Shown here piece after piece: positions 10,617 to 63,752 of a stretch of 64,000 bases of DNA; positions within the stretch are counted from its first letter, which is position 1; the number at the start of each line of letters is the position of its first letter. The DNA lies in the NCBI GenBank assembly GCA_043808095.1, contig JAZDFF010000001.1, forward strand, positions 94,230 through 158,229. The letters are read 5' to 3'. The DNA comes from Candidatus Omnitrophota bacterium. Lineage in GTDB: Bacteria > Omnitrophota > Gorgyraeia > JAZDFF01. The translations under genes and the position numbers were made by a program. The notes under the pieces are model-generated. The model saw nothing but the letters and a program-made list of their open reading frames with translations. It did no database searches and was not told where the DNA came from.

Positions 10617-10645
10617 TTCATTCCTTATCATTGAAACTAGTTTTT

Positions 10646-10745
10646 GGGTATGGATGCTAGTATCGATACTCGTCTTGGAAGCTCGTATTTTGTTATCTTG
10701 TATCTAGCATCTAGTATCTAGCATCGATACCAGCATCGATAACTA
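10646..10745. repeat. Palindromic repeat, family H copy
   Basis: GGTATGGATGCTAGTATCGATACTCGTCTTGGAAGCTCGT matches 22129-22170 and the reverse complement of 1040-1080. Confidence 0.75.
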
Positions 10746-10787
10746 GAGACGAATATCAATGATCATGTTTTTAGGAAAGTAATAATT

Positions 10788-11545: not shown

Positions 11546-11887
11546 ATGGCCAAAACGATTAAATTAAAATTTAATAAAGACAGGCTTATCCCGGTGATTA
11601 TCCAGGATTACAAGACCAAAGAGGTATTAATGCTTGCCTATATGAATAGAGAGTCGCTTAAAAGGACCTTGCGGCTTGGCAAGACCTGTTTCTGGTCTCG
11701 TTCCAGGAAGAAATACTGGGTAAAAGGAGAGACCTCCGGACATTTCCAATTTGTTAAAGGTATTTCCTATGACTGCGACCAGGATGCCTTATTGATTAAG
11801 GTAAGACAGGTAGGCGTAGCCTGTCATACAGGTAATAGGTCATGCTTTTATAGGAAATTAAAACTAAGTAACCAGCCCCGAATGTAG
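11546..11887 (+). CDS. hisI: Phosphoribosyl-AMP cyclohydrolase HisI
   Basis: 113 aa; GLIPVIIQD-like N-terminus, CDxDALL and C-terminal Cys cluster. Confidence 0.8.
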
Positions 11888-11889
11888 AA

Positions 11890-12103
11890 ACCCAAGAAGT
11901 TATACATCGGGATCCCGAAGCGATACTTCGGAGAATATCTGCATTCGGGAAAACCAGAGTACAGAAACCAGAAAAAATAAAATCTGGTTACTGTCCCGAA
12001 TGTTGTTACTATGTTAGTTATTCTTCGGGATCCCGAAGCGATACCATAGTAGTTACTACATTCGGGATAAACTGTTAACTGGTTTCTCCCGAGCGAAGCG
12101 AGG
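11890..12103. repeat. Palindromic repeat cluster ending in shared CCGAGCGAAGCGAGG module before the trpE ATG
   Basis: CGGGATCCCGAAGCGATACTTCGG palindromes; ACCAGAGTACAGAAACCAG and CCGAGCGAAGCGAGG shared with 39369-39446; also related to 51410-51470. Confidence 0.8.
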
Positions 12104-12108
12104 GGTTA

Positions 12109-13590
12109 ATGTATCATCCTACTTTTAAAGAATTCAAGAGATTATCCAAAAAAGGCAATCTCGTCCCTGTTTACAAGGAGATTCTGGCGGATCTGGAGAC
12201 GCCGGTGTCTGCCTTTATGAAAATTATGGACGATGATTACGCCTATCTTCTGGAATCAGTAGAGGGTACGCAGAAGATCGCGCGTTATTCTTTTTTAGGG
12301 GCTCATCCCTCATTGATATTTAAGGCAAAGGATAATATTGTTGAGATAACGGCCGAGAGAAAGAAAAAAAAGATTACTTTTAAGACCGATCCTTTGCTTG
12401 AGATTAAAAAAATAATGCAGCAATTTAAATCTGTAGAGGTTAAAGACCTGCCGCGTTTTTACGGCGGGATGGTAGGTTTTATCGGTTATGATATGGTCAA
12501 GTTTTTTGAACCCAAGCTCAAAATCCTAGATTCAAAAAAAAGGGATGTGGATTTTCCTGATGCCGTATTCATGTTAAGCGATAAACTCTTTATCTTTGAC
12601 CACTTTAACCATAAGATAAAGATAGTCGCCTGCGTATTCATCAAGGACAAGAAAAAAATAAAAGGGTATTACCACAAAGGCCTTAAAGATATCGAGGCGA
12701 TGCATAAAAGGCTAAAAGGCCCGCTTAAGAAACAGTTTTTGGAGGAGAGGCCTTGCGCAATAGGTCAAATTTCTTCAAACCTGTCTAAGCCGAGATTTAC
12801 GCGGATTGTGAATGAGGCCAAAAGATATATCCGCCAGGGCGATATTATCCAGGTGGTTTTATCCCAGCGTTTTAAGGTAGGCATTGATTGCAGGCCTTTA
12901 TCCATTTATCGCAGGCTGCGCTCCATCAATCCTTCGCCTTATATGTTTTGTCTTAAATTGCATGACTTAAGTTTAATCGGCTCCTCGCCTGAGATGCTGA
13001 TAAGATGTGAAGGCGGCCTCGTCCAGACTCGGCCTATAGCCGGGACCCGGCCAAGAGGCCGCGACGAAGAAAGTGATAACTTATTGGCCCGGCAGCTGCT
13101 TTTAGATAAGAAAGAAAGGGCAGAGCATATCATGTTAGTGGACCTGGGCAGGAATGATTTAGGAAGAGTCTGCAGGTTCTCTACGGTCAGGGTCAGCGAG
13201 TTTATGTCTATAGAGAGATTTTCCCATGTTATGCATATTACCAGCGAAGTGACGGGCAGGCTAAGGGCGCAAGAGGATATATATAGTTTATTACGCGGCG
13301 CATTTCCTGCCGGCACAGTTACAGGAAGCCCCAAGATCAGGGCCATGGAAATCATCAATGAATTAGAGGATACCCGGCGCGGACCTTATGCCGGCTGCAT
13401 AGGATATTTTAGTTTTTCCGGCAACCTCGATACCTGTATTACTATTCGTACGATATTTTTAAAAGGTAAGACCGCTTATTTCCAGTCTGGCGCAGGAATA
13501 GTTGCTGACTCAAGGCCGGTTAGAGAGTATAATGAGACAATCAACAAGGCTAGGGCATTGGTTGAGGCAATTGTCGGATTGCATAAATAA
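12109..13590 (+). CDS. trpE: Anthranilate synthase component I TrpE
   Basis: Chorismate-binding domain motifs (LLESVEG, IAGTRPRG, GAFPAGTVTGSPK, GPYAGCIGYF). Confidence 0.85.
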   Translation: MYHPTFKEFKRLSKKGNLVPVYKEILADLETPVSAFMKIMDDDYAYLLESVEGTQKIARYSFLGAHPSLIFKAKDNIVEITAERKKKKITFKTDPLLEIKKIMQQFKSVEVKDLPRFYGGMVGFIGYDMVKFFEPKLKILDSKKRDVDFPDAVFMLSDKLFIFDHFNHKIKIVACVFIKDKKKIKGYYHKGLKDIEAMHKRLKGPLKKQFLEERPCAIGQISSNLSKPRFTRIVNEAKRYIRQGDIIQVVLSQRFKVGIDCRPLSIYRRLRSINPSPYMFCLKLHDLSLIGSSPEMLIRCEGGLVQTRPIAGTRPRGRDEESDNLLARQLLLDKKERAEHIMLVDLGRNDLGRVCRFSTVRVSEFMSIERFSHVMHITSEVTGRLRAQEDIYSLLRGAFPAGTVTGSPKIRAMEIINELEDTRRGPYAGCIGYFSFSGNLDTCITIRTIFLKGKTAYFQSGAGIVADSRPVREYNETINKARALVEAIVGLHK

Positions 13591-13804
13591 TAATATTAAT
13601 TAAAATTAAAAAAGACTGTTGATTTAACATGATTTTAAATCCTAAATTCGAAGCACTAAATCCAAAACAAATCCAAAACCCAAAATTAAAAATTCGAAAA
13701 AAAGAATATATTTTGTATTTTGAACATTTGAGTTTGTTTAGAGTTTAGGATTTCGAATTTAGAATTTATCTTGAGTTTTAATAGGGTGTTCAAAAGGAGG
13801 ATTT

Positions 13805-16520: not shown

Positions 16521-16690
16521 TGAGGCCACGACTTACGGAATGGAATGAACGTAAGTCGTCTTGGCCGAACTTATCCCCCACCACTTTTTGGAAAAGCATA
16601 AAATTCTCATTAAAGGTTTTACTCCTAAATTTACCTTTCATACTATCTCGAGTACTCTTTCAAAAAGTGGTGGGGGATTAAATTCGTCCG
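16521..16690. mobile_element. Cargo-free copy of the palindromic element that carries the GIY-YIG gene at 63291-63680
   Basis: Same left arm as 63291-63350 (TGAGGCC..ACTTACGGA..ACGTAAGT..GGCCGAA); perfect 18-bp inverted repeats ATCCCCCACCACTTTTTG (16573-16590) and CAAAAAGTGGTGGGGGAT (16661-16678) flank about 70 bp with no ORF; same TTAAATTCG tail. Confidence 0.7.
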
Positions 16691-22067: not shown

Positions 22068-22119
22068 TATGAAAATATTAAATTGTACTATTCAAAAGTC
22101 GAGTTAACAGTTTGAAGCT

Positions 22120-22310
22120 CGGTTTTTCGGTATGGATGCTCGTATCGATGCTCGTCTTGGAAACTCGTCTTATGTTTTATCTAGCTTCGATATCCTTAGA
22201 TTGCACTCAAGATACCGTCCTGAGCCTGTCGAAGGACGATACCAGCATCCCTGCCTCACCGGCAGGCAGGGACGACCTAAGACGAGTATCGATACCTTGG
22301 TTGTTGAGTA
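22120..22310. repeat. Palindromic repeat cluster, family H (inverted relative to copy at 900-1100) plus CCTGCCTCACCGGCAGGCAGG
   Basis: 22129-22154 is the reverse complement of 1054-1079; 22200-22260 matches the reverse complement of 941-1000. Confidence 0.8.
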
Positions 22311-22410
22311 TATAGAGTTGTAAATACATCTATTAAATTATACAATAATTCGAAATTCGTGCTTCGGATTTAACTTAAGTAAGAAACATATTACACATGG
22401 GAGTGATAAA

Positions 22411-22710: not shown

Positions 22711-22749
22711 GACTAAGAAAAAATGAATCTTTTAACGCTAATAATCACA

Positions 22750-23060
22750 AATCTTCCGCCACAATTCTTTTGCACCACAAATATTGGCGCATCCGCCAAT
22801 TATTATGGCGGAGGCGGACCCGCCAATCTTTGTGGCGGGAACGCTAATGTTCGCGAATCTTTAAAATTGCCTAATTTTATGGTTAAGTTTTCGGGCTAAG
22901 GTTAAGAAACCAGTATGGAAAATTAGGTTAGGGTTAAGTATTTCTTTACCTAACCTTAACCTCTAAACCATACTGGCATCATAACCCTAACCATAACCTG
23001 AGATTAGCGAGAATTCGCGTTTCCTGCCTGCCGTGAGGCAGGGATTAGCGGAAATTCGCG
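22750..23060. repeat. Palindromic repeat cluster (CCGCCACAA...TTGTGGCGG family; GGTTAAG module; CCTGCC palindrome)
   Basis: GGCGGACCCGCCAATCTTTGTGGCGGG is identical at about 22813 and 59093; related copy at 30001-30060. Confidence 0.8.
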
Positions 23061-23089
23061 TTTGAAGTTTTTGAAATCTTCTAGATAAG

Positions 23090-24866: not shown

Positions 24867-24879
24867 GCACAAAGATTAA

Positions 24880-25000
24880 ATTCCTAATGACTAAATCCTA
24901 ATGAATAATTAATTCTTAAATTATCCAATGTCTAATTAGAATTTTAGGCATTAAGAAATTTAGAAATTTATTCGTCATTCGTCATTAGAAATTTGGCATT
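24880..25000. repeat. Palindromic repeat, family F (TTATTCGTCATTCGTCATTAGAAATT)
   Basis: Related copies at 55030-55160 and 58960-59035. Confidence 0.75.
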
Positions 25001-25023
25001 AATAAACCGAATAAAATTATAAA

Positions 25024-31749: not shown

Positions 31750-31920
31750 GAGGACATAATTTACGGAATACGGTGACGTAAATTATGTGTCCGAATTTTA
31801 CCCTTGACATTTTCCTTAATGATGAAAATTTTAGGCAGATGTCAAGGGTTTAACTCGCACATATAACTTACATCGCTTTGAGTTAATCACTGGTTCTGTA
31901 AGTTATGTGCACGTAAAAGG
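31750..31920. repeat. Palindromic repeat cluster (ACGGAA...CGTAAGT and CCCTTGACAT/ATGTCAAGGG hairpins)
   Basis: Inverted repeats visible; ACTTACG/CGTAAGT module shared with 16530-16560 and 63300-63340. Confidence 0.65.
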
Positions 31921-38393: not shown

Positions 38394-39368
38394 ATGGCTA
38401 TAGAATTATATAAAGAAAAGTGGGTCAATAATGTTAATGAGGTGATTTTAGGCGCCACAAAAGAAGAGGGCGGAAGTCGCGCATTTTCTTTGAAGGTGGG
38501 CGGCGAGTCCTGTCTGCCTTATTTATTTGAAGAGGGTTCTATGCCCAATGCGCCCGTGGTTGCCCAGGAGATTTGGGATATCGAGCCTACTGATTGGCCG
38601 GAGATCTTGAGAGAGCCGTTTAAAGATGTCCTGGCAAATCCCCTGGAGTGGGCCGAGAAGGCAGTTAAGGCTTATGGCGCGAATTTATTGTGTCTAAAAT
38701 TACAGGGTGCGCATCCTGATTCAGGAAACCGGCCTAACGATGAATTAGTCAAGATCTTAAAAGATATCTTAAAGACAGTCAATGTGCCTTTGATCGTTTC
38801 AGGATGCGGTGATGACGCCAAAGATAACCTCCTCATGCCTCTTTTAAGCGAGGCGACTAAAGGAGAACGCATCCTTTTTGGCGACGCTGTCCAGGATAAC
38901 TATAAGACGATTACGGCAAGCGTCTTAGCTGACGGACATAATATTATTGCCGAGTCGCCCATTGATATTAATATTGCTAAGCAACTTAATATCCTGATTA
39001 CTGACATGGGGTTGCCTGGGGATAAGATTGTGATTAATCCTACGGTGGGCGCTTTAGGTTATGGCCTTGAGTATGCTTATTCCATAATGGAGAGGGCCAG
39101 GCTTGCGGCATTGGCCGGTGATAAGATGATGAGTATGCCTTTTATATGTTTCATCGGCCAGGAGGCTACCAAGGCCAAAGAGGCTAAGGCCACTATAGAG
39201 GAACATCCCCAATGGGGCAAGGAATTAGAGCGGGGGATTGTTTGGGAGGCGGTTACTGCCTGTGCATTTTTACAGTCCGGAGCAGACATCCTGGTTATGC
39301 GTCATCCCCAGGCGATAAAACTGATTAAAGAGACGATAGAAGAGTTAATGTCTAAGAGTAACCAGTAA
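38394..39368 (+). CDS. acsD: Corrinoid iron-sulfur protein small subunit AcsD
   Basis: 324 aa TIM-barrel-like protein between cooC and acsE; size and context match CFeSP small subunit. Confidence 0.65.
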   Translation: MAIELYKEKWVNNVNEVILGATKEEGGSRAFSLKVGGESCLPYLFEEGSMPNAPVVAQEIWDIEPTDWPEILREPFKDVLANPLEWAEKAVKAYGANLLCLKLQGAHPDSGNRPNDELVKILKDILKTVNVPLIVSGCGDDAKDNLLMPLLSEATKGERILFGDAVQDNYKTITASVLADGHNIIAESPIDINIAKQLNILITDMGLPGDKIVINPTVGALGYGLEYAYSIMERARLAALAGDKMMSMPFICFIGQEATKAKEAKATIEEHPQWGKELERGIVWEAVTACAFLQSGADILVMRHPQAIKLIKETIEELMSKSNQ

Positions 39369-39446
39369 CCAGAGTACAGAAGCCAGGGCTAAGTATTTTT
39401 CTGGTTTCTGTTTACAGGTTTCTGATCTCTACCGAGCGAAGCGAGG
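39369..39446. repeat. Repeat module ending in CCGAGCGAAGCGAGG just before the acsE ATG
   Basis: ACCAGAGTACAGAAGCCAG and CCGAGCGAAGCGAGG shared with 11955-12103. Confidence 0.8.
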
Positions 39447-39451
39447 ATAAA

Positions 39452-40240
39452 ATGATTATAGTCGGCGAACTCATAAATGGGATGTACAAAGAGGTAAGAG
39501 AGGCACTTGCCAAAAAGGATAAAAAGGTTATCCAGGATTTGGCTAAAAGACAGATTGAGGCAGGCGCCTCGATTTTAGATGTTAACTGCGGCCCGGCATC
39601 GCGCGATCCGATAGCCGATATGAAATGGTTAGTCGAGACCATTCAAGAGACAAACAATGTCTCGCTTTCCTTGGATAGCACCAAACCTGATGTGATTGAG
39701 GCAGGGCTAAAACTGGTTAAAAATAAGCCAATGATTAATTCAACCAGCGCAGACCCAGACAGATTAGAGGTATTGGTAGGGCTGGCCATAAAATATAAGG
39801 CCTTTTTAATTGGCCTCGCTTTAGATAAAAGGGGCGTGCCGCAAGATAAGGACAGGCGCCTGGAATTAGCTGCGCAAATTATCGGTTTTTGCCAGGAGAA
39901 AGGCTTTCCTACCGAGGATTTATATCTAGATCCGGTGGTTTTACCGGTCAATGTGGCCCAGACACAGCAGGTTTCTATGCTTGAGGCCTTACGGGAATTT
40001 AAGTTATTGTCTGACCCTGCCCCTAAAACCATTATTGGCTTAAGCAATGTTTCTCAAGGAGCAAAAGACCGCAGTATTATCAATCGTATATTTCTGGTGA
40101 TGTCTTTATCAAATGGCTTAGACGCAGCTATACTAGATCCCCTGGACAAAGCACTTATGGACTCTTTTATAACTGCCGAACTTATTTTAAACAAACAGAT
40201 TTATTGCGATTCTTATCTGGATGCCTATAAAAAGAGATGA
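39452..40240 (+). CDS. acsE: Methyltetrahydrofolate:corrinoid/iron-sulfur protein methyltransferase AcsE
   Basis: Pterin-binding domain, MIIVGELINGMYKEV...LDVNCGP, 262 aa. Confidence 0.8.
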   Translation: MIIVGELINGMYKEVREALAKKDKKVIQDLAKRQIEAGASILDVNCGPASRDPIADMKWLVETIQETNNVSLSLDSTKPDVIEAGLKLVKNKPMINSTSADPDRLEVLVGLAIKYKAFLIGLALDKRGVPQDKDRRLELAAQIIGFCQEKGFPTEDLYLDPVVLPVNVAQTQQVSMLEALREFKLLSDPAPKTIIGLSNVSQGAKDRSIINRIFLVMSLSNGLDAAILDPLDKALMDSFITAELILNKQIYCDSYLDAYKKR

Positions 40241-50507: not shown

Positions 50508-50622
50508 CTTTTCCAAAATTGACTACGTCAATTTTGGAGTAGCGAGTAGAGAATATTTTATTCACTGACTACTATGTACTATTTACTGATTACTAAAGGG
50601 ATGATTTCTTATAGTTTAAAAC

Positions 50623-50982
50623 GGGCAGGTACCCAAGCGGTCAAAGGGGACAGACTGTTTAAAAGCAGCGCCCCGACGAAAGTCGTGGTGGAAAAGTAGG
50701 TGAATTCAGGGAAACCCTCTCGTAACTACGAAAGGTAATCCTGAGCCAATCCTCGCACAAAGCTGGCAGGCAGAAGGCCTGCTTGCTGAAGCTTTAGCGA
50801 AGGCAGGTGCAGAGACTAAGCGCCTACCACCTAAAACTGGATGAAGCCCAGTTTTATCCCAAGCGAAGTTAAGGGATAACTTCTCTGGTTAAGGTGATGA
50901 GATAGTCCAAGCCTTGAGGAAACTCAAGGGATACTTGAAATCTGTTGCACACGCTTCAGAGGTTCGAATCCTCTCCTGCCCA
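50623..50982 (+). tRNA. tRNA-Tyr(GTA) interrupted by a group I intron in the anticodon loop
   Basis: Exons GGGCAGGTACCCAAGCGGTCAAAGGGGACAGACTGT + AAATCTGTTGCACACGCTTCAGAGGTTCGAATCCTCTCCTGCCCA form a class-II Tyr cloverleaf (acceptor GGGCAGG/CCTGCCC, anticodon stem ACAGA/TCTGT, loop CTGT|AAA). Confidence 0.75.
50659..50937 (+). ncRNA. Group I intron (IC3-like, no ORF) within tRNA-Tyr
   Basis: 5' splice site after U with GCAG guide-sequence partner; terminal G; core elements AATCCTGAGCCAA, GGTGCAGAGACTAAGCG and GAGATAGTCC resemble cyanobacterial tRNA-Leu intron P3/P7 elements as recalled from memory. Confidence 0.7.
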
Positions 50983-51358: not shown

Positions 51359-51397
51359 GCGGGCATAGCACAGTGGTAGTGCAGTGGCCTTCTCCCG
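51359..51397 (+). other. tRNA-like 5' half (acceptor and D-arm only)
   Basis: GCGGGCATAGCACAGTGGTAGTGCAGTGGCCTTCTCC resembles the 5' half of a Gly-type tRNA but no T-arm or 3' acceptor follows; a family C palindrome follows. Confidence 0.35.
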
Positions 51398-51475
51398 AAT
51401 GAAGAAACTTCTTTAGAATAGCATCGGGATCCCGAAGTATAACTTCTTGGGTTACTACATTCGGGGCAAGCTATA
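51398..51475. repeat. Palindromic repeat, family C (CGGGATCCCGAAG / CATTCGGG)
   Basis: Reverse-complement match to 11895-11940. Confidence 0.7.
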
Positions 51476-51486
51476 ATAATAATTTT

Positions 51487-51557
51487 GCGGGAGTAGTTCA
51501 GTGGTAGAACAATAGCCTTCCAAGCTATATACGCGGGTTCAATTCCCGTCTCCCGCT
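51487..51557 (+). tRNA. tRNA-Gly(TCC)
   Basis: GCGGGAG/CTCCCGC acceptor, anticodon loop CTTCCAA, T-loop TTCAATT; CCA follows. Confidence 0.85.
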
Positions 51558-51559
51558 CC

Positions 51560-51890
51560 AATAGTTTACACGGGTTTCCGCCACCCGTCATCTTTGATGG
51601 CGAGTGGCGAGATCTCGCCGAAGCTAAAAAAATGGAGTCCACGGCTTTACCCTCTTCGACTCGCGTCGAGCGAGGCGAGCAGCCGTGGTACCTGAAAAAC
51701 CCGCCTACGCTTCGCTTCGGCGAGGTCCGCTCGCCTCGCGGCGAAGCCGCGGGCCTTCAATACGTAATGGCGACATCTCGCCGTAGCGCTAATTGCACGC
51801 ATTCATCCCCAGGTTCACACCTGGGGTTTTCCCGCCAAAGGCGAGGCTCGCCAAAGGCGGCTGCGCGAAGGCGGATAAATATCTAGCTTC
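51560..51890 (+). repeat. GC-rich island with four GGCGAG-N(2-5)-CTCGCC hairpin palindromes
   Basis: Palindromes at 51607-51620 (GGCGAGATCTCGCC), 51719-51735, 51779-51792, 51840-51852; composition clearly more GC-rich than the surroundings; ORFs here are Arg-rich low-complexity and judged spurious. Confidence 0.55.
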
Positions 51891-54983: not shown

Positions 54984-55029
54984 ATCTTTTTATGGCGTAT
55001 GCAGACAGATGAGAAGCGCGGATGTTACA

Positions 55030-55160
55030 GATTAAATGCCTAATGACTAATGAATTCTTAAATGACTTAATGTCCAATGTCAAATTAAACCATTTCATTA
55101 GAAATTTAAAAATTAGGAATTTATTCGTCATTAGTCATTAAAAATTTGACATTAAATCAA
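55030..55160. repeat. Palindromic repeat, family F
   Basis: GAATTTATTCGTCATTAGTCATTAAAAATT matches 24963-24992. Confidence 0.75.
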
Positions 55161-55171
55161 TAAAATAATCT

Positions 55172-59140: not shown

Positions 59141-59449
59141 CTAGGCTTTGCGTAGATTAGACGGCAAGATTGCCAACGCTTTCCTGTATTTGGTGATGGT
59201 ACGGCGGGCAAGTTTTATACCTTGTTTAGCAAAATAATCTACAATTTCAATATCGCTAAGCGGCTTTGATTTATCTTCTTCTGCGATAAGCATGCGGATG
59301 CACTTTTTTATCTCATTGCCGGATCCAAATAATAAACTTTTTAGAAAAGGCCGCTTATAAAATAATTGCCAGGACATTAAACGGAATATTCTTCGTTGAA
59401 AACTCGCCTGCTTTTGGTGAACATTATCAAGAAAGCGCTTCCTTGACAA
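59141..59449 (-). pseudogene. rpoN: Sigma-54 (RpoN) C-terminal fragment
   Basis: 102 aa ending ...KPLSDIEIVDYFAKQGIKLARRTITKYRKAL (RpoN box ARRTVAKYRE-like); no N-terminal activator-interacting or core-binding domains. Confidence 0.6.
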
Positions 59450-63290: not shown

Positions 63291-63680
63291 TGAGGCCCGA
63301 ACTTACGGATCCCAGCGAAATGTTGGTAGAACGTAAGTTTGCTGGCCGAATTTACCCCCACACCAATTATCTATACAACTGAAAGGAAAGGATAAAGGCA
63401 ATGTTTTATGTTTATTTATTAAAAAGTAATAAAGATAGCAATCTTTACATAGGTCTCACACATAACTTAAAACGAAGGGTTCAACAGCATAATAATGGCT
63501 TAGTTGTTTCTACAAAATTAAGAAGACCATTTGAAGTAGTATATTGCGAAGGGTATAAATCAGAGAAAGACGCAAGACTCAGAGAAAAGAACCTTAAATT
63601 AAGATCTCGTGCATTTGCTCAATTAAAGAAACGGATTACAGCAAGTTTATCATAATAATTGGTGTGGGGGTTTAATTCGC
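63291..63680. mobile_element. Palindromic element carrying a GIY-YIG nuclease gene between perfect 17-bp inverted repeats
   Basis: IR-L ACCCCCACACCAATTAT (63354-63370) and IR-R ATAATTGGTGTGGGGGT (63655-63671); left arm TGAGGCC..ACTTACGGA..ACGTAAGT..GGCCGAA and right tail TTAATTCG shared with the cargo-free copy at 16521-16690. Confidence 0.7.
63401..63655 (+). CDS. Small GIY-YIG nuclease (YhbQ/UPF0213-like)
   Basis: MFYVYLLKSNKDSNLYIGLTHNLKRRVQQHNNG with GIY-YIG-type N-terminal motif; 84 aa. Confidence 0.8.
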   Translation: MFYVYLLKSNKDSNLYIGLTHNLKRRVQQHNNGLVVSTKLRRPFEVVYCEGYKSEKDARLREKNLKLRSRAFAQLKKRITASLS

Positions 63681-63752
63681 AGACGGTCTTACGACCTATG
63701 ATTTATGTCGTCATCCTGACTCCATAAATCATCTGCTAATTAAAGGAGAAAA

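What the first reader, a model, noticed from the sequence alone, without database searches (positions are those of the whole stretch)
11890..12111. Repeat element supplies an identical ribosome-binding region to trpE and acsE
The spacers before trpE (ATG 12109) and acsE (ATG 39452) both end with ACCAGAGTACAGAA(A/G)CCAG ... TCTGGTT ... CCGAGCGAAGCGAGG followed by 5-6 nt and the ATG. The GAGG of the shared module is positioned as the Shine-Dalgarno sequence. Two unrelated operons therefore share a repeat-derived translation initiation region, suggesting the mobile palindromes are co-opted as expression signals.
Basis: seen in the sequence. Interest (0 to 1): 0.5.

Follow-up and report, generated by a model that had tools for sequence, protein, structure and literature searches.

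The report
Repeat hairpin carrying a ribosome-binding site
The shared sequence in front of trpE and acsE belongs to a large, apparently undescribed family of hairpin repeats in Omnitrophota bacteria that fill the gap between neighbouring genes and always end 4-5 bases before the next gene's start codon, so the repeat brings its own ribosome-binding signal.

Summary
CCGAGCGAAGCGAGG lies exactly 5 nt before the ATG of trpE and of acsE. The similarity covers the whole acsD-acsE spacer (83 nt) and the whole hisI-trpE spacer, once two nested copies of a second palindrome are removed.

The source is a Candidatus Omnitrophota MAG. Scans found 46 distinct copies of the same architecture. It is a long hairpin built of 7-nt units (P1), then a mini-hairpin CC-GA-GC-GAA-GC-GA-GG (P2), whose 3' strand is GAGG. 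In 42 of the 46, an ATG opening a long ORF follows 3-5 nt later (null 0.8%, P ~1e-83).

The genes served are unrelated housekeeping genes, including several ribosomal protein genes, secA, dnaJ and rpoD. The upstream gene stops a median 6 nt before the hairpin foot.

Relatives have empty sites: acsD-acsE 1-3 nt apart, hisI-trpE 4 or 32 nt apart with no GAGG. A 74%-identical TrpE lineage keeps the same element, 84% identical while 4-fold sites are 44% identical, with a compensatory G-C to A-U change in P2.

Best reading: an inserted, selectively maintained "portable operon junction" that supplies the downstream Shine-Dalgarno sequence and sometimes the upstream stop codon. SD use and the role of the hairpin are inferred, not shown. 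There is no Rfam match and no literature match.

The parts
11866..11875 (+). trpE copy, left end (AAGTAACCAG). It lies inside the last codons of hisI, which are read as ...K-L-S-N-Q.
   Evidence: It aligns with the left end of the acsE copy and of the orthologous L178 copy. The native HisI C-terminus in relatives ends at ...[10 protein letters not shown].
11876..11949 (+). Nested copy 1 of a second palindromic repeat family (CCCGAATG...CGGGATCCCGAAG...CATTCGGG). It carries the actual hisI stop codon (TAG, 11885-11887).
   Evidence: It is absent from the orthologous element in L178.
11950..11971 (+). trpE copy, P1 5' arm (AAAACCAGAGTACAGAAACCAG), made of 7-nt units of the form CAGNNNN.
11972..11983 (+). 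trpE copy, P1 apical loop (AAAAAATAAAAT).
11984..11994 (+). trpE copy, P1 3' arm, first part (CTGGTTACTGT).
11995..12066 (+). Nested copy 2 of the second palindromic repeat family, inserted into the P1 3' arm.
   Evidence: It is absent from L178.
12067..12087 (+). trpE copy, P1 3' arm, second part (ATAAACTGTTAACTGGTTTCT). Its last bases, TCT, close the foot of P1.
12088..12104 (+). trpE copy, P2 mini-hairpin (CCC-GA-GC-GAA-GC-GA-GGG), which is the constant module.
   Evidence: Exact 15-mer. Predicted fold -7.1 kcal/mol. A compensatory change is seen in L178.
12100..12103 (+). GAGG, the presumed Shine-Dalgarno core for trpE, 5 nt before the ATG at 12109.
   Evidence: GAGG is invariant in all variant copies.
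12109..13590 (+). trpE (anthranilate synthase component I), the gene served by the element.
39351..39386 (+). acsE copy, left end and P1 5' arm (TCTAAGAGTAACCAGTAACCAGAGTACAGAAGCCAG). It encodes the last five residues of AcsD (S-K-S-N-Q) and its TAA stop (39366-39368).
   Evidence: AcsD in relatives ends two residues after the conserved ELM/ILM.
39387..39400 (+). acsE copy, P1 loop (GGCTAAGTATTTTT).
39401..39430 (+). acsE copy, P1 3' arm (CTGGTTTCTGTTTACAGGTTTCTGATCTCT), made of 7-nt units of the form CTGNNNN.
39431..39447 (+). acsE copy, P2 mini-hairpin module (ACCGAGCGAAGCGAGGA).
39443..39446 (+). GAGG, the presumed Shine-Dalgarno core for acsE, 5 nt before the ATG at 39452.
39452..40240 (+). 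acsE (methyl-THF:corrinoid/Fe-S protein methyltransferase), the gene served by the element.

Best explanation
The two sites are copies of an Omnitrophota-specific intercistronic repeat element of about 85-100 nt. It acts as a self-contained 'operon junction'.

Anatomy, 5' to 3' on the coding strand:
(1) A left end, which often contains stop codons (GTAACCAG or TGA-AGATTACAG units).
(2) P1, a long imperfect hairpin whose arms are arrays of 7-nt units (AGNACAG/AACCAG pairing with CTGTNNT/CTGGTNT).
(3) P2, directly abutting the P1 foot: a constant mini-hairpin TCTN-CC-GA-GC-GAA-GC-GA-GG.
(4) 4-5 A-rich nucleotides.
(5) The resident ATG.

Shown:
- The element was inserted into gene junctions that are tight in relatives.
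- It is always co-oriented with both flanking genes.
- Its 3' end is anchored 3-5 nt before the start codon.
- The upstream ORF ends at or inside the P1 foot.
- The element persists at orthologous junctions long after synonymous sites have saturated.

Inferred:
- The GAGG in the 3' strand of P2 pairs with the CCUC of the 16S anti-SD and is the ribosome-binding site of the downstream gene. It replaces the stop/start coupling, or the SD embedded in the upstream gene, that the insertion disrupted.
- Folding of P1 brings the upstream stop codon and the downstream SD/start close together. A ribosome terminating at the P1 foot would melt the lower stem and free the pyrimidine-rich 3' arm next to P2. 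Translational coupling would then survive the insertion.

The way the element is copied is unknown. It behaves like a non-autonomous, MITE/REP-like repeat that can colonise operon junctions because it carries the signals it destroys.
For: Repeat status. The motifs occur 2 versus 0.09 and 2 versus 0.01 expected. The full spacers align.

Family. Seven copies in 6 Omnitrophota genomes and about 40 in metagenome contigs share the P1-P2 architecture.

Start anchoring. Of 46 distinct copies, 33 have an ATG at +4, 8 at +5 and 1 at +3 opening an ORF of at least 80 aa. The null is 0.8% and the binomial probability is 3e-83.

Generic use. By my reading of the N-terminal sequences, the downstream genes are S12, S7, S4, S10, S3, L14, L16, L9, L25, SecA, DnaJ, RpoD, GyrB, MurA, RNase E/G, ProS, ArgB, TrkA, FolE, AccD, GspE and IscU, plus TrpE and AcsE.

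Intercistronic position. A same-strand upstream ORF ends 55-150 nt before the ATG. Its stop lies a median 6 nt from the P1 foot.

Insertion. acsD-acsE are 1-3 nt apart in relatives at 71-72% identity, with GAGGAGG inside acsD. hisI-trpE are 4 nt (L179) and 32 nt (L180) apart, AT-rich and without GAGG.

Constraint. L178 (TrpE 74% identical) keeps the element at the same junction, 84% identical, against 44% at 4-fold sites. Its P2 has G5-C11 changed to A5-U11. Two changes in the apical stem keep pairing only as G-U. All four variant modules keep GAGG.

SD plausibility. Other genes of the window use canonical GGAGG-type SDs 4-9 nt from the start.

Not a promoter or terminator. Not a known RNA family.
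Against: - No expression data exist, so use of GAGG as an SD is inferred.
- About 40% of the window's genes have no SD-like motif at all. trpE in relatives does without one. Translation may therefore not need GAGG.
- GAGG is only a 4-nt SD, and it lies in the 3' strand of a hairpin. That hairpin is predicted at -3 to -7 kcal/mol and is not significantly more stable than shuffles.
- P1 is as stable on the antisense strand as on the sense strand. An arm pairs with its own partner only slightly better than with partners from other copies (19.2 vs 18.4 of 24). Evidence for an RNA-level rather than DNA-level structure therefore rests on a few substitutions.
- No target-site duplication, transposase or donor element was found. 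Nothing explains how insertion achieves a fixed 4-5 nt distance to the ATG.
- Copies were ascertained by an exact 21-specified-base pattern, and many are orthologues, so they are not independent.
Confidence: 0.6

Rival explanations
1. The constant module is only the recognition end of a mobile element: a single-strand DNA hairpin used by a transposase or recombinase. Under this view its closeness to ATG reflects target-site choice, for example insertion at stop/start junctions. GAGG would not be used by ribosomes, and downstream genes would be translated SD-independently, as many genes in this genome appear to be.
For: - P1 folds equally well on both strands, so it is a DNA-level palindrome.
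- The GAGCGAAGCGA cap contains GCGAAGC. From my own knowledge, this is an exceptionally stable DNA mini-hairpin.
- The same 15-mer caps unrelated stems in many phyla and in viral contigs, where it is not near start codons.
- About 40% of the window's genes lack an SD.
- Some right flanks contain what may be the old stop codon: ATAAA-ATG at acsE and GTTA-ATG at trpE.
Against: - No transposase was found in the window, and no target duplication.
- Strict co-orientation with the genes and a 4-5 nt spacing tighter than natural SD spacing are what selection for translation would give.
- GAGG is kept in every variant while other module positions change.
- The wobble-only and compensatory changes in L178 favour RNA pairing.
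- The element is conserved far above neutral expectation.
Confidence: 0.2
2. The element is a dedicated cis-acting RNA signal rather than a selfish repeat. It could be an intercistronic processing or stability element (for example an RNase III/E substrate that defines mRNA ends). It could also be an operator for a lineage-specific RNA-binding protein that co-regulates many housekeeping genes. In either case the SD is embedded in it.
For: - The element is long-lived at orthologous junctions of ArgB, TrkA, RpoD and TrpE although 4-fold sites are saturated.
- It is enriched at ribosomal-protein and other core genes.
- P1 is 58-137 nt from foot to foot, i.e. a stem of roughly 20-30 pairs, long enough for a double-strand RNase.
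- The constant 19-nt module would suit a sequence-specific binder.
Against: - The downstream genes have no common function (TrpE, AcsE, MurA, TrkA and others).
- The arms differ in sequence type and in unit number even between near-identical genomes (L148/L151, L124/L153).
- There is little copy-specific covariation.
- Empty sites in relatives show that the junctions work without it.
- The host genome is full of other heptad palindromes that lack the module.
Confidence: 0.15
3. The element acts as a portable promoter or terminator, or the resemblance between the two spacers is chance similarity of low-complexity sequence.
For: Some family members contain TGTAAT, which resembles a -10 hexamer, in the 3' arm.
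Against: - No promoter-like or terminator-like site is found in either window copy.
- No U-run follows P1.
- Chance is excluded.
Confidence: 0.03

Closest known systems
REP/BIME elements and REPINs of enterobacteria and pseudomonads (mobilised by RAYT transposases)
   Same: They are short extragenic palindromes present in many copies. They are often co-transcribed between genes of an operon and sit just after stop codons. From my own knowledge, they affect mRNA stability and upstream translation.
   Different: REPs are not anchored to the next start codon and do not carry an SD. They occur in both orientations and have a conserved GTAG-type head. The element here is strictly oriented, ends 4-5 nt before ATG, has 7-nt periodic arms, and no RAYT was seen.
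Correia/NEMIS elements of Neisseria and other bacterial MITEs (ERIC/IRU, YPAL, RUP, RPE)
   Same: They are non-autonomous repeats of about 100-150 nt with inverted-repeat ends that fold into long hairpins in the mRNA. They change expression of adjacent genes (promoters, RNase III processing, fusions to ORFs) (PMC2649163, PMC2229807, PMC10969869).
   Different: Neither of the two reviews searched (PMC10969869, PMC2229807) contains the terms Shine-Dalgarno, ribosome-binding site or start codon. Correia elements have TA duplications and promoter hexamers. Here no duplication and no promoter-like site was found, and the position relative to the start codon is fixed.
Structures that mediate translational coupling or mask an SD (phage MS2-type coupling hairpins, ROSE/fourU RNA thermometers)
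   Same: The SD lies in the 3' strand of a small hairpin next to a larger helix that a ribosome terminating upstream must open.
   Different: Those structures are single-gene and locus-specific. This one is a copied module present at dozens of unrelated genes. P2 is weak (-3 to -7 kcal/mol), and no temperature or coupling data exist.
d(GCGAAGC)-type mini-hairpin with flanking tandem G-A pairs
   Same: The core of P2 (GA-GCGAAGC-GA) is this motif. It caps unrelated stems in Acidobacteriota, Patescibacteria, haloarchaea and viral contigs.
   Different: Elsewhere it is a generic hairpin cap with no relation to start codons. Only in Omnitrophota is it fused to the heptad hairpin and placed so that its 3' strand is the SD.
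RNase III processing hairpins between phage T7 early genes
   Same: Long intercistronic hairpins lie immediately upstream of ribosome-binding sites in polycistronic mRNAs.
   Different: The T7 sites are unique sequences of one phage and do not contain the SD. No cleavage evidence exists here.

Membership tests
Shine-Dalgarno ribosome-binding site | Complementarity to the 3' end of 16S rRNA (CCUCC) | tested here: met
   GAGG gives 4 nt of complementarity. The anti-SD is taken as canonical because other genes of the window have TAAGGAGGT-type SDs. The 16S 3' end itself was not in any sequence held.
Shine-Dalgarno ribosome-binding site | Spacing of about 4-9 nt to an authentic start codon | tested here: met
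   Spacing is 5 nt in both window copies and 3-5 nt in 42 of 46 family members. The start codons are confirmed by orthologue N-termini.
Shine-Dalgarno ribosome-binding site | Ribosome binding or translation depends on it | not testable with these tools
   This needs reporter fusions, toeprinting or ribosome profiling.
MITE (miniature inverted-repeat transposable element) | Many dispersed copies with inverted-repeat arms | tested here: met
   There are 2 copies in 64 kb, 2 copies on each of three other contigs, and 46 distinct copies overall. The arms form P1. The element is asymmetric, however, because P2 is at one end only.
MITE (miniature inverted-repeat transposable element) | Presence/absence at orthologous sites | tested here: met
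   The acsD-acsE and hisI-trpE junctions are empty in relatives.
MITE (miniature inverted-repeat transposable element) | Target-site duplication | tested here: inconclusive
   No consistent duplication is seen at the flanks. The available empty sites are too diverged (about 60-72% protein identity) to define the breakpoints.
MITE (miniature inverted-repeat transposable element) | A related autonomous element with the same ends and a transposase | not tested
   No transposase domain was found in the window ORFs examined. The rest of the genome was not available.
REP/REPIN-RAYT system | Conserved GTAG-type tetranucleotide head; both orientations; extragenic after 3' ends | tested here: not met
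   There is no such head. All copies are co-oriented with the flanking genes and anchored to the downstream start.
Correia/NEMIS element | 26-bp terminal repeats that create -35/-10 hexamers, with TA duplication | tested here: not met
   No promoter-like site, no TA flanks, and different sequence.
Any Rfam family (cis-regulatory RNA, riboswitch, leader) | Covariance-model match | tested here: not met
   At gathering threshold, only a group I intron and tRNAs are found in the window. Permissive scans of both sites give only sub-threshold microRNA-hairpin noise.
Intrinsic terminator | GC-rich hairpin followed by a U-run | tested here: not met
   No site is found. P1 is followed by CCGAGCG.
Integron attC site | Imperfect palindrome with RYYYAAC/GTTRRRY core sites between mobile cassettes | tested here: not met
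   The flanking genes are housekeeping genes in conserved synteny (hisF-hisI-trpE-rpsP-yajC-secD). I saw no core sites when reading the sequence.

The most novel reading that the evidence does not exclude
Omnitrophota harbour a repeat element that has evolved into, or been domesticated as, a complete portable operon junction. It supplies stop codons at its 5' foot and a Shine-Dalgarno sequence at its 3' foot. Its hairpin physically bridges the two, so that terminating ribosomes re-initiate across about 90 inserted nucleotides. This would let the element sit inside even ribosomal-protein operons and be kept by selection for very long periods.
Probability: 0.3. Interest if true: 0.8.

Novelty: new variant of a known kind. 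Interest (0 to 1): 0.68.

Why it matters
Bacterial intergenic repeats are known to supply promoters, terminators, RNase sites and even protein segments. A repeat family whose invariant end is the ribosome-binding site of the next gene is not in the reviews or databases I could search. Nor is one fixed at 4-5 nt from dozens of unrelated start codons, including those inside ribosomal-protein operons.

If GAGG is used, translation initiation regions can be copied around a genome as a module. It would also explain how selfish palindromes can invade tightly coupled operons without polar damage. The element would give a ready-made, testable case for hairpin-bridged translational coupling.

For genome annotation of this uncultivated phylum, it would also serve as a precise marker of true start codons.

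Tried and rejected
- MAFFT of the raw spacers misaligned them because of the nested insertions. This was solved by excising the nested elements.
- The exact-protein look-up of TrpE failed, so the source genome outside the window was never obtained.
The source genome was not among the hits.
- RNAalifold on a MAFFT alignment of 32 copies recovered P2 and only part of P1, because the 7-nt units slip out of register.
- A gapless own-arm versus other-arm complementarity test gave only a small excess.
- A sense versus antisense folding comparison gave no difference. I therefore do not claim RNA-level covariation for P1 beyond the L178 comparison.
- The idea that GAGG is the pre-existing SD and the element merely targets it was considered. 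At acsE the right flank could be read as an old ...CGA GGA TAA A ATG. I rejected the idea as a general explanation because the empty hisI-trpE sites have no GAGG and the 15-mer is a self-contained hairpin elsewhere.
- Promoter and terminator readings were rejected.
- Rfam gave nothing.
- Literature searches by sequence and by topic gave nothing relevant.
- No 16S 3' end was present in any fetched locus.
- A scan of viral contigs found the cap motif but no family member.
Full report
**1. The observation**

CCGAGCGAAGCGAGG occurs exactly twice in the 64-kb window, at 12089-12103 and 39432-39446, both on the + strand. With 2 mismatches allowed, shuffles give 0.09 matches. ACCAGAGTACAGAARCCAG occurs at 11953 and 39368 and nowhere else, against 0.01 expected.

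In both places GAGG ends exactly 5 nt before an ATG. Those ATGs open TrpE (TIGR00564, 8.5e-164) and AcsE (NF005719, 3.9e-89). The genes just upstream are HisI and AcsD/CdhD.

The source is a Candidatus Omnitrophota MAG. Identical AcsE and TrpE proteins are on record from one NCBI contig of 159,674 bp. The window has 41% G+C, and every gene I called in it is on the + strand.

**2. The real extent of the similarity**

The whole 83-nt acsD-acsE spacer is the repeat. The hisI-trpE spacer (221 nt) is the same repeat interrupted twice by a different ~72-nt palindrome, CCCGAATG...CGGGATCCCGAAG...CATTCGGG, at 11876-11949 and 11995-12066. A third copy of that palindrome is at 51394-51466. With the two insertions excised, the trpE copy aligns end to end with the acsE copy.

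The similarity starts inside the upstream genes. Both HisI and AcsD end in S-N-Q, encoded by AGTAACCAG. AcsD's stop codon is the TAA of the next GTAACCAG unit. HisI reads on into the nested palindrome before it stops.

**3. Anatomy**

Folding gives the same picture in every copy.
- **P1** is a long imperfect hairpin whose arms are arrays of 7-nt units. The 5' arm is built of CAGNNNN-type units (AGNACAG or AACCAG). The 3' arm is built of CTGNNNN-type units, with anchored consensus ...CTGTAATCTGTTCTCTGTAATCTGTTTTCT.
- **P2** starts at the very next base. It is CC-GA-GC-GAA-GC-GA-GG: two G-C pairs closing a GAA loop, then tandem G-A mismatches, then two or three C-G pairs. Its 3' strand is GCGAGG.
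- **The tail** is 4-5 mostly A-rich bases followed by ATG.

The acsE element folds at -30.4 kcal/mol (z = -2.9). The whole trpE spacer folds at -89.5 kcal/mol (z = -7.3), and P1 survives there as the outer helix around the nested palindrome. P2 alone is weak, at -7.1 and -3.1 kcal/mol, and is not distinguishable from shuffles.

**4. It is a family, and it is anchored to start codons**

Most hits were unrelated repeats of Acidobacteriota, Patescibacteria, haloarchaea and others, in which the same 15-mer caps other stems. Seven hits in six Omnitrophota genomes had the P1-P2 architecture, and all seven were followed by an ATG 3-4 nt later.

A metagenome scan with CTGNNNTCTNCCGAGCGAAGCGAGG gave 51 loci. 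The pattern says nothing about what follows the module.

After removing duplicates and a separate haloarchaeal family, 46 distinct copies remain. The outcome downstream of GAGG was:

| Outcome | Copies |
|---|---|
| ATG at +4, opening an ORF of at least 80 aa or one running off the contig | 33 |
| ATG at +5, same | 8 |
| ATG at +3, same | 1 |
| TTG or GTG at +6 | 2 |
| No start (neither belongs to the family: L123 lacks the P1-P2 architecture; L146 is a short contig of the haloarchaeal family) | 2 |

Only 0.8% of positions in the same loci satisfy the ATG criterion, which gives a binomial P of 3e-83. Many copies are orthologues of each other, so the effective number is smaller. About 25 different genes are still involved.

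**5. Which genes, and what lies upstream**

I identified the downstream proteins by reading their N-terminal sequences; they were not run through a family search. They are ribosomal proteins S12, S7, S4, S10, S3, L14, L16, L9 and L25, plus SecA, DnaJ, an RpoD-type sigma factor, GyrB, MurA, RNase E/G, ProS, ArgB, TrkA, FolE, AccD, GspE-type ATPases, IscU, CoaE and others. TrpE and AcsE add to the list. There is no common pathway, so this is not a regulon-specific leader.

In nearly every case a sizeable ORF on the same strand ends 55-150 nt before the ATG. Its stop codon lies a median of 6 nt from the first paired base of P1, sometimes inside the arm. The element therefore is the intercistronic spacer. 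The distance to the downstream start is fixed, while the distance to the upstream stop varies. The anchoring is to the start.

**6. It was inserted**

*acsD-acsE.* Gene order around acsE is conserved in relatives with 71-72% identical AcsE. There acsD and acsE are 1-3 nt apart. In one relative the SD GAGGAGG lies in the last codons of acsD (...GAACTGATGAGGAGGTAGgATG). AcsD ends two residues after a conserved ELM/ILM in the relatives. In the window it continues S-K-S-N-Q-stop, encoded by the element.

*hisI-trpE.* The synteny hisF-hisI-trpE-rpsP-yajC-secD is also conserved. The junctions compare as follows.

| Locus | hisI-trpE junction |
|---|---|
| L179 | 4 nt, AT-rich, no GAGG |
| L180 | 32 nt, AT-rich, no GAGG |
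| L177 | short run of TTAACCAN units and a TTG start |
| L178 | the same element, without the two nested palindromes; hisI's stop is the TAA of GTAACCAG |

At this junction the GAGG therefore arrived with the element. The nested palindromes are later, lineage-specific insertions.

**7. It is maintained**

The window and L178 TrpE proteins are 74% identical. Their genes are 44% identical at 4-fold degenerate sites, which is saturation. The two elements are 84% identical counting gaps, the level of first and second codon positions.

The differences are informative.
- In P2, GAGC...GCGA has become GAAC...GTGA. The G5-C11 pair is replaced by A5-U11.
- In the apical stem, CCAG became CTGG opposite an unchanged CTGG. 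This keeps pairing only through two G-U pairs on the sense strand.

Across other orthologous pairs (ArgB, TrkA, RpoD, S7, RNase G) the element is present although 4-fold sites are saturated. The arms can differ in unit type. In nearly identical genomes the arms differ by whole 7-nt units. The junction element is long-lived, its arms are indel-prone, and its module is fixed.

In the four variant modules found without requiring an exact match, GAGG is always intact. The variants are CCGAGCGGAGCGAGG before rpsL with quite different arms, CTTAACGAAGCGAGG, an expanded version in L085/L165, and the L178 form.

**8. What it most likely does**

Other genes in the window have canonical SDs (TAAGGAGGT, AAGGAGG, GGAGG) 4-9 nt from the start. 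About 27 of 62 have none. GAGG at 4-5 nt is therefore a plausible, moderate SD for a canonical anti-SD.

My preferred reading is that the element is a portable operon junction. It can occupy tight, translationally coupled junctions because it brings a stop-rich 5' foot and an SD at its 3' foot.

Two further steps are inference.
- Folded P1 places the upstream stop within roughly 25-30 nt of the downstream start.
- A ribosome terminating at the P1 foot must open the lower stem. This frees the pyrimidine-rich 3' arm beside P2, so coupling could be preserved.

**9. What weakens this reading**

- P1 is as stable on the antisense strand as on the sense strand (-30.6 vs -31.6 kcal/mol, p = 0.23).
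- An arm pairs with its own partner only slightly better than with partners from other copies.
- P2 is weak.
- trpE in relatives needs no SD.
- I cannot explain how insertion reaches a fixed distance from the ATG. No target duplication was seen, and no transposase was seen in the window.

**10. Rivals**

Three rivals remain.
1. The module is a DNA-level recognition hairpin, and start proximity reflects target choice.
2. The element is a processing or operator RNA.
3. It is a promoter or terminator, or the resemblance is chance.

The third is excluded. The first two are not excluded. They fit less well with the strict orientation, the invariant GAGG, the tight spacing and the wobble and compensatory changes.

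**11. Comparison with known things**

Rfam has nothing. At gathering threshold only a group I intron and three tRNAs appear in the window, and permissive scans give only microRNA-hairpin noise. Sequence and topic searches of the literature found nothing. Two reviews of bacterial MITEs do not contain the terms Shine-Dalgarno, ribosome-binding site or start codon.

The closest known kinds are REP/BIME/REPIN elements and Correia/ERIC-type MITEs. These are co-transcribed palindromic repeats that alter expression of neighbours (PMC2649163, PMC2229807, PMC10969869). The present family differs in three ways: it is strictly oriented, it is fixed 4-5 nt before the start codon, and it carries the SD itself. 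I therefore class it as a new variant of a known kind.

The P2 core is the GCGAAGC mini-hairpin flanked by tandem G-A pairs. Its stability is from my own knowledge. It recurs as a cap on arbitrary stems in many phyla and in viral contigs. That explains the cross-phylum hits and is not evidence of homology.

**12. Limits**

- Copies were found with an exact pattern, so diverged members are under-sampled.
- The source genome beyond the window, and any 16S 3' end, were not available.
- All functional statements are inferences from sequence.

Noticed in passing
window 11876-11949, 11995-12066, 51394-51466: A second palindromic repeat family of about 72 nt (CCCGAATG...CGGGATCCCGAAG...CATTCGGG). Two copies are nested inside the trpE copy of the main element and are absent from the orthologous element in L178. 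hisI's stop codon lies inside the first.
   Followed up: partly
window 51359-51393, next to 51394-51466 and 51487-51560: A truncated tRNA-Gly-like 5' half ends where the third copy of the CCCGAATG palindrome begins. It lies just upstream of an intact tRNA-Gly(TCC). It looks like a tRNA gene copy disrupted in the anticodon loop, or an integration-site remnant.
   Followed up: partly
window 50593-50982: A group I intron (RF00028, 86.6 bits, 50593-50929) in a split tRNA-like gene with a long variable arm. The 5' part starts at 50623 and the 3' part ends at 50982. ARAGORN does not call this tRNA.
   Followed up: no
window 63327-63698; also about 16540-16690 and 31775-31874: An 84-aa stand-alone GIY-YIG nuclease ORF (63401-63655) is flanked by 44-nt inverted repeats. 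Palindromes with the same GGCCGAAYTTAYCCCC motif occur twice more in the window without a gene. It is a possible small autonomous element with derivatives.
   Followed up: no
window, most spacers longer than 100 nt (e.g. 804-1131, 10617-10787, 13591-13804, 22068-22410, 22711-23089, 24867-25023, 54984-55171): The long intergenic spacers are filled with several other palindromic repeat families, many also with 7-nt periodic arms. Relatives have compact junctions: trpE-rpsP is 214 nt here against 18 nt in L179 and L180. This lineage seems to have undergone a general expansion of intergenic palindromes.
   Followed up: partly
L035, L071, L091, L119, L126, L127, L129, L132, L134, L143, L154, L161, L169, L171: A conserved haloarchaeal two-hairpin motif (GGCGCGCCGAGTCAGGCGCGCC ... 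CTGCTGGAATCTGCCGAGCGAAGCGAGGCAGTGGTTT) recurs in several haloarchaeal genomes and in metagenome contigs. It is not next to start codons and may be an uncharacterised small RNA or repeat.
   Followed up: no
e.g. L007, L010, L022, L025, L053, L070, L108 (Acidobacteriota/Thermoanaerobaculia); L095, L077, L061 (Nealsonbacteria): Other lineage-specific repeat families use the same GAGCGAAGCGA cap. About 30 copies of TCGCGGCGCGAATAGTCTCCCGAGCGAAGCGAGGGAGGAGGTTCGCGCCGCG occur in Acidobacteriota MAGs. Tandem units of about 66 nt occur in a Nealsonbacteria MAG.
   Followed up: no
window 59141-59449 (- strand): A 102-aa ORF matches only the C-terminal DNA-binding domain of sigma-54 (PF04552). It is on the opposite strand to all other genes, inside a 775-nt spacer, and is probably a gene fragment.
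   Followed up: no
L166 near 7042 (- strand); L150/L157 near 799-806; L085 near 6901 (= L165 near 1765): The SD module, or its 3' half AAGCGAGG, also occurs 3-5 nt before the ATG of rpsL and two other genes, behind hairpins built from quite different repeat units (CTTAAACAC..., TTAGTAAC..., TAATTACTAATC...). The module therefore combines with different arm families.
   Followed up: partly
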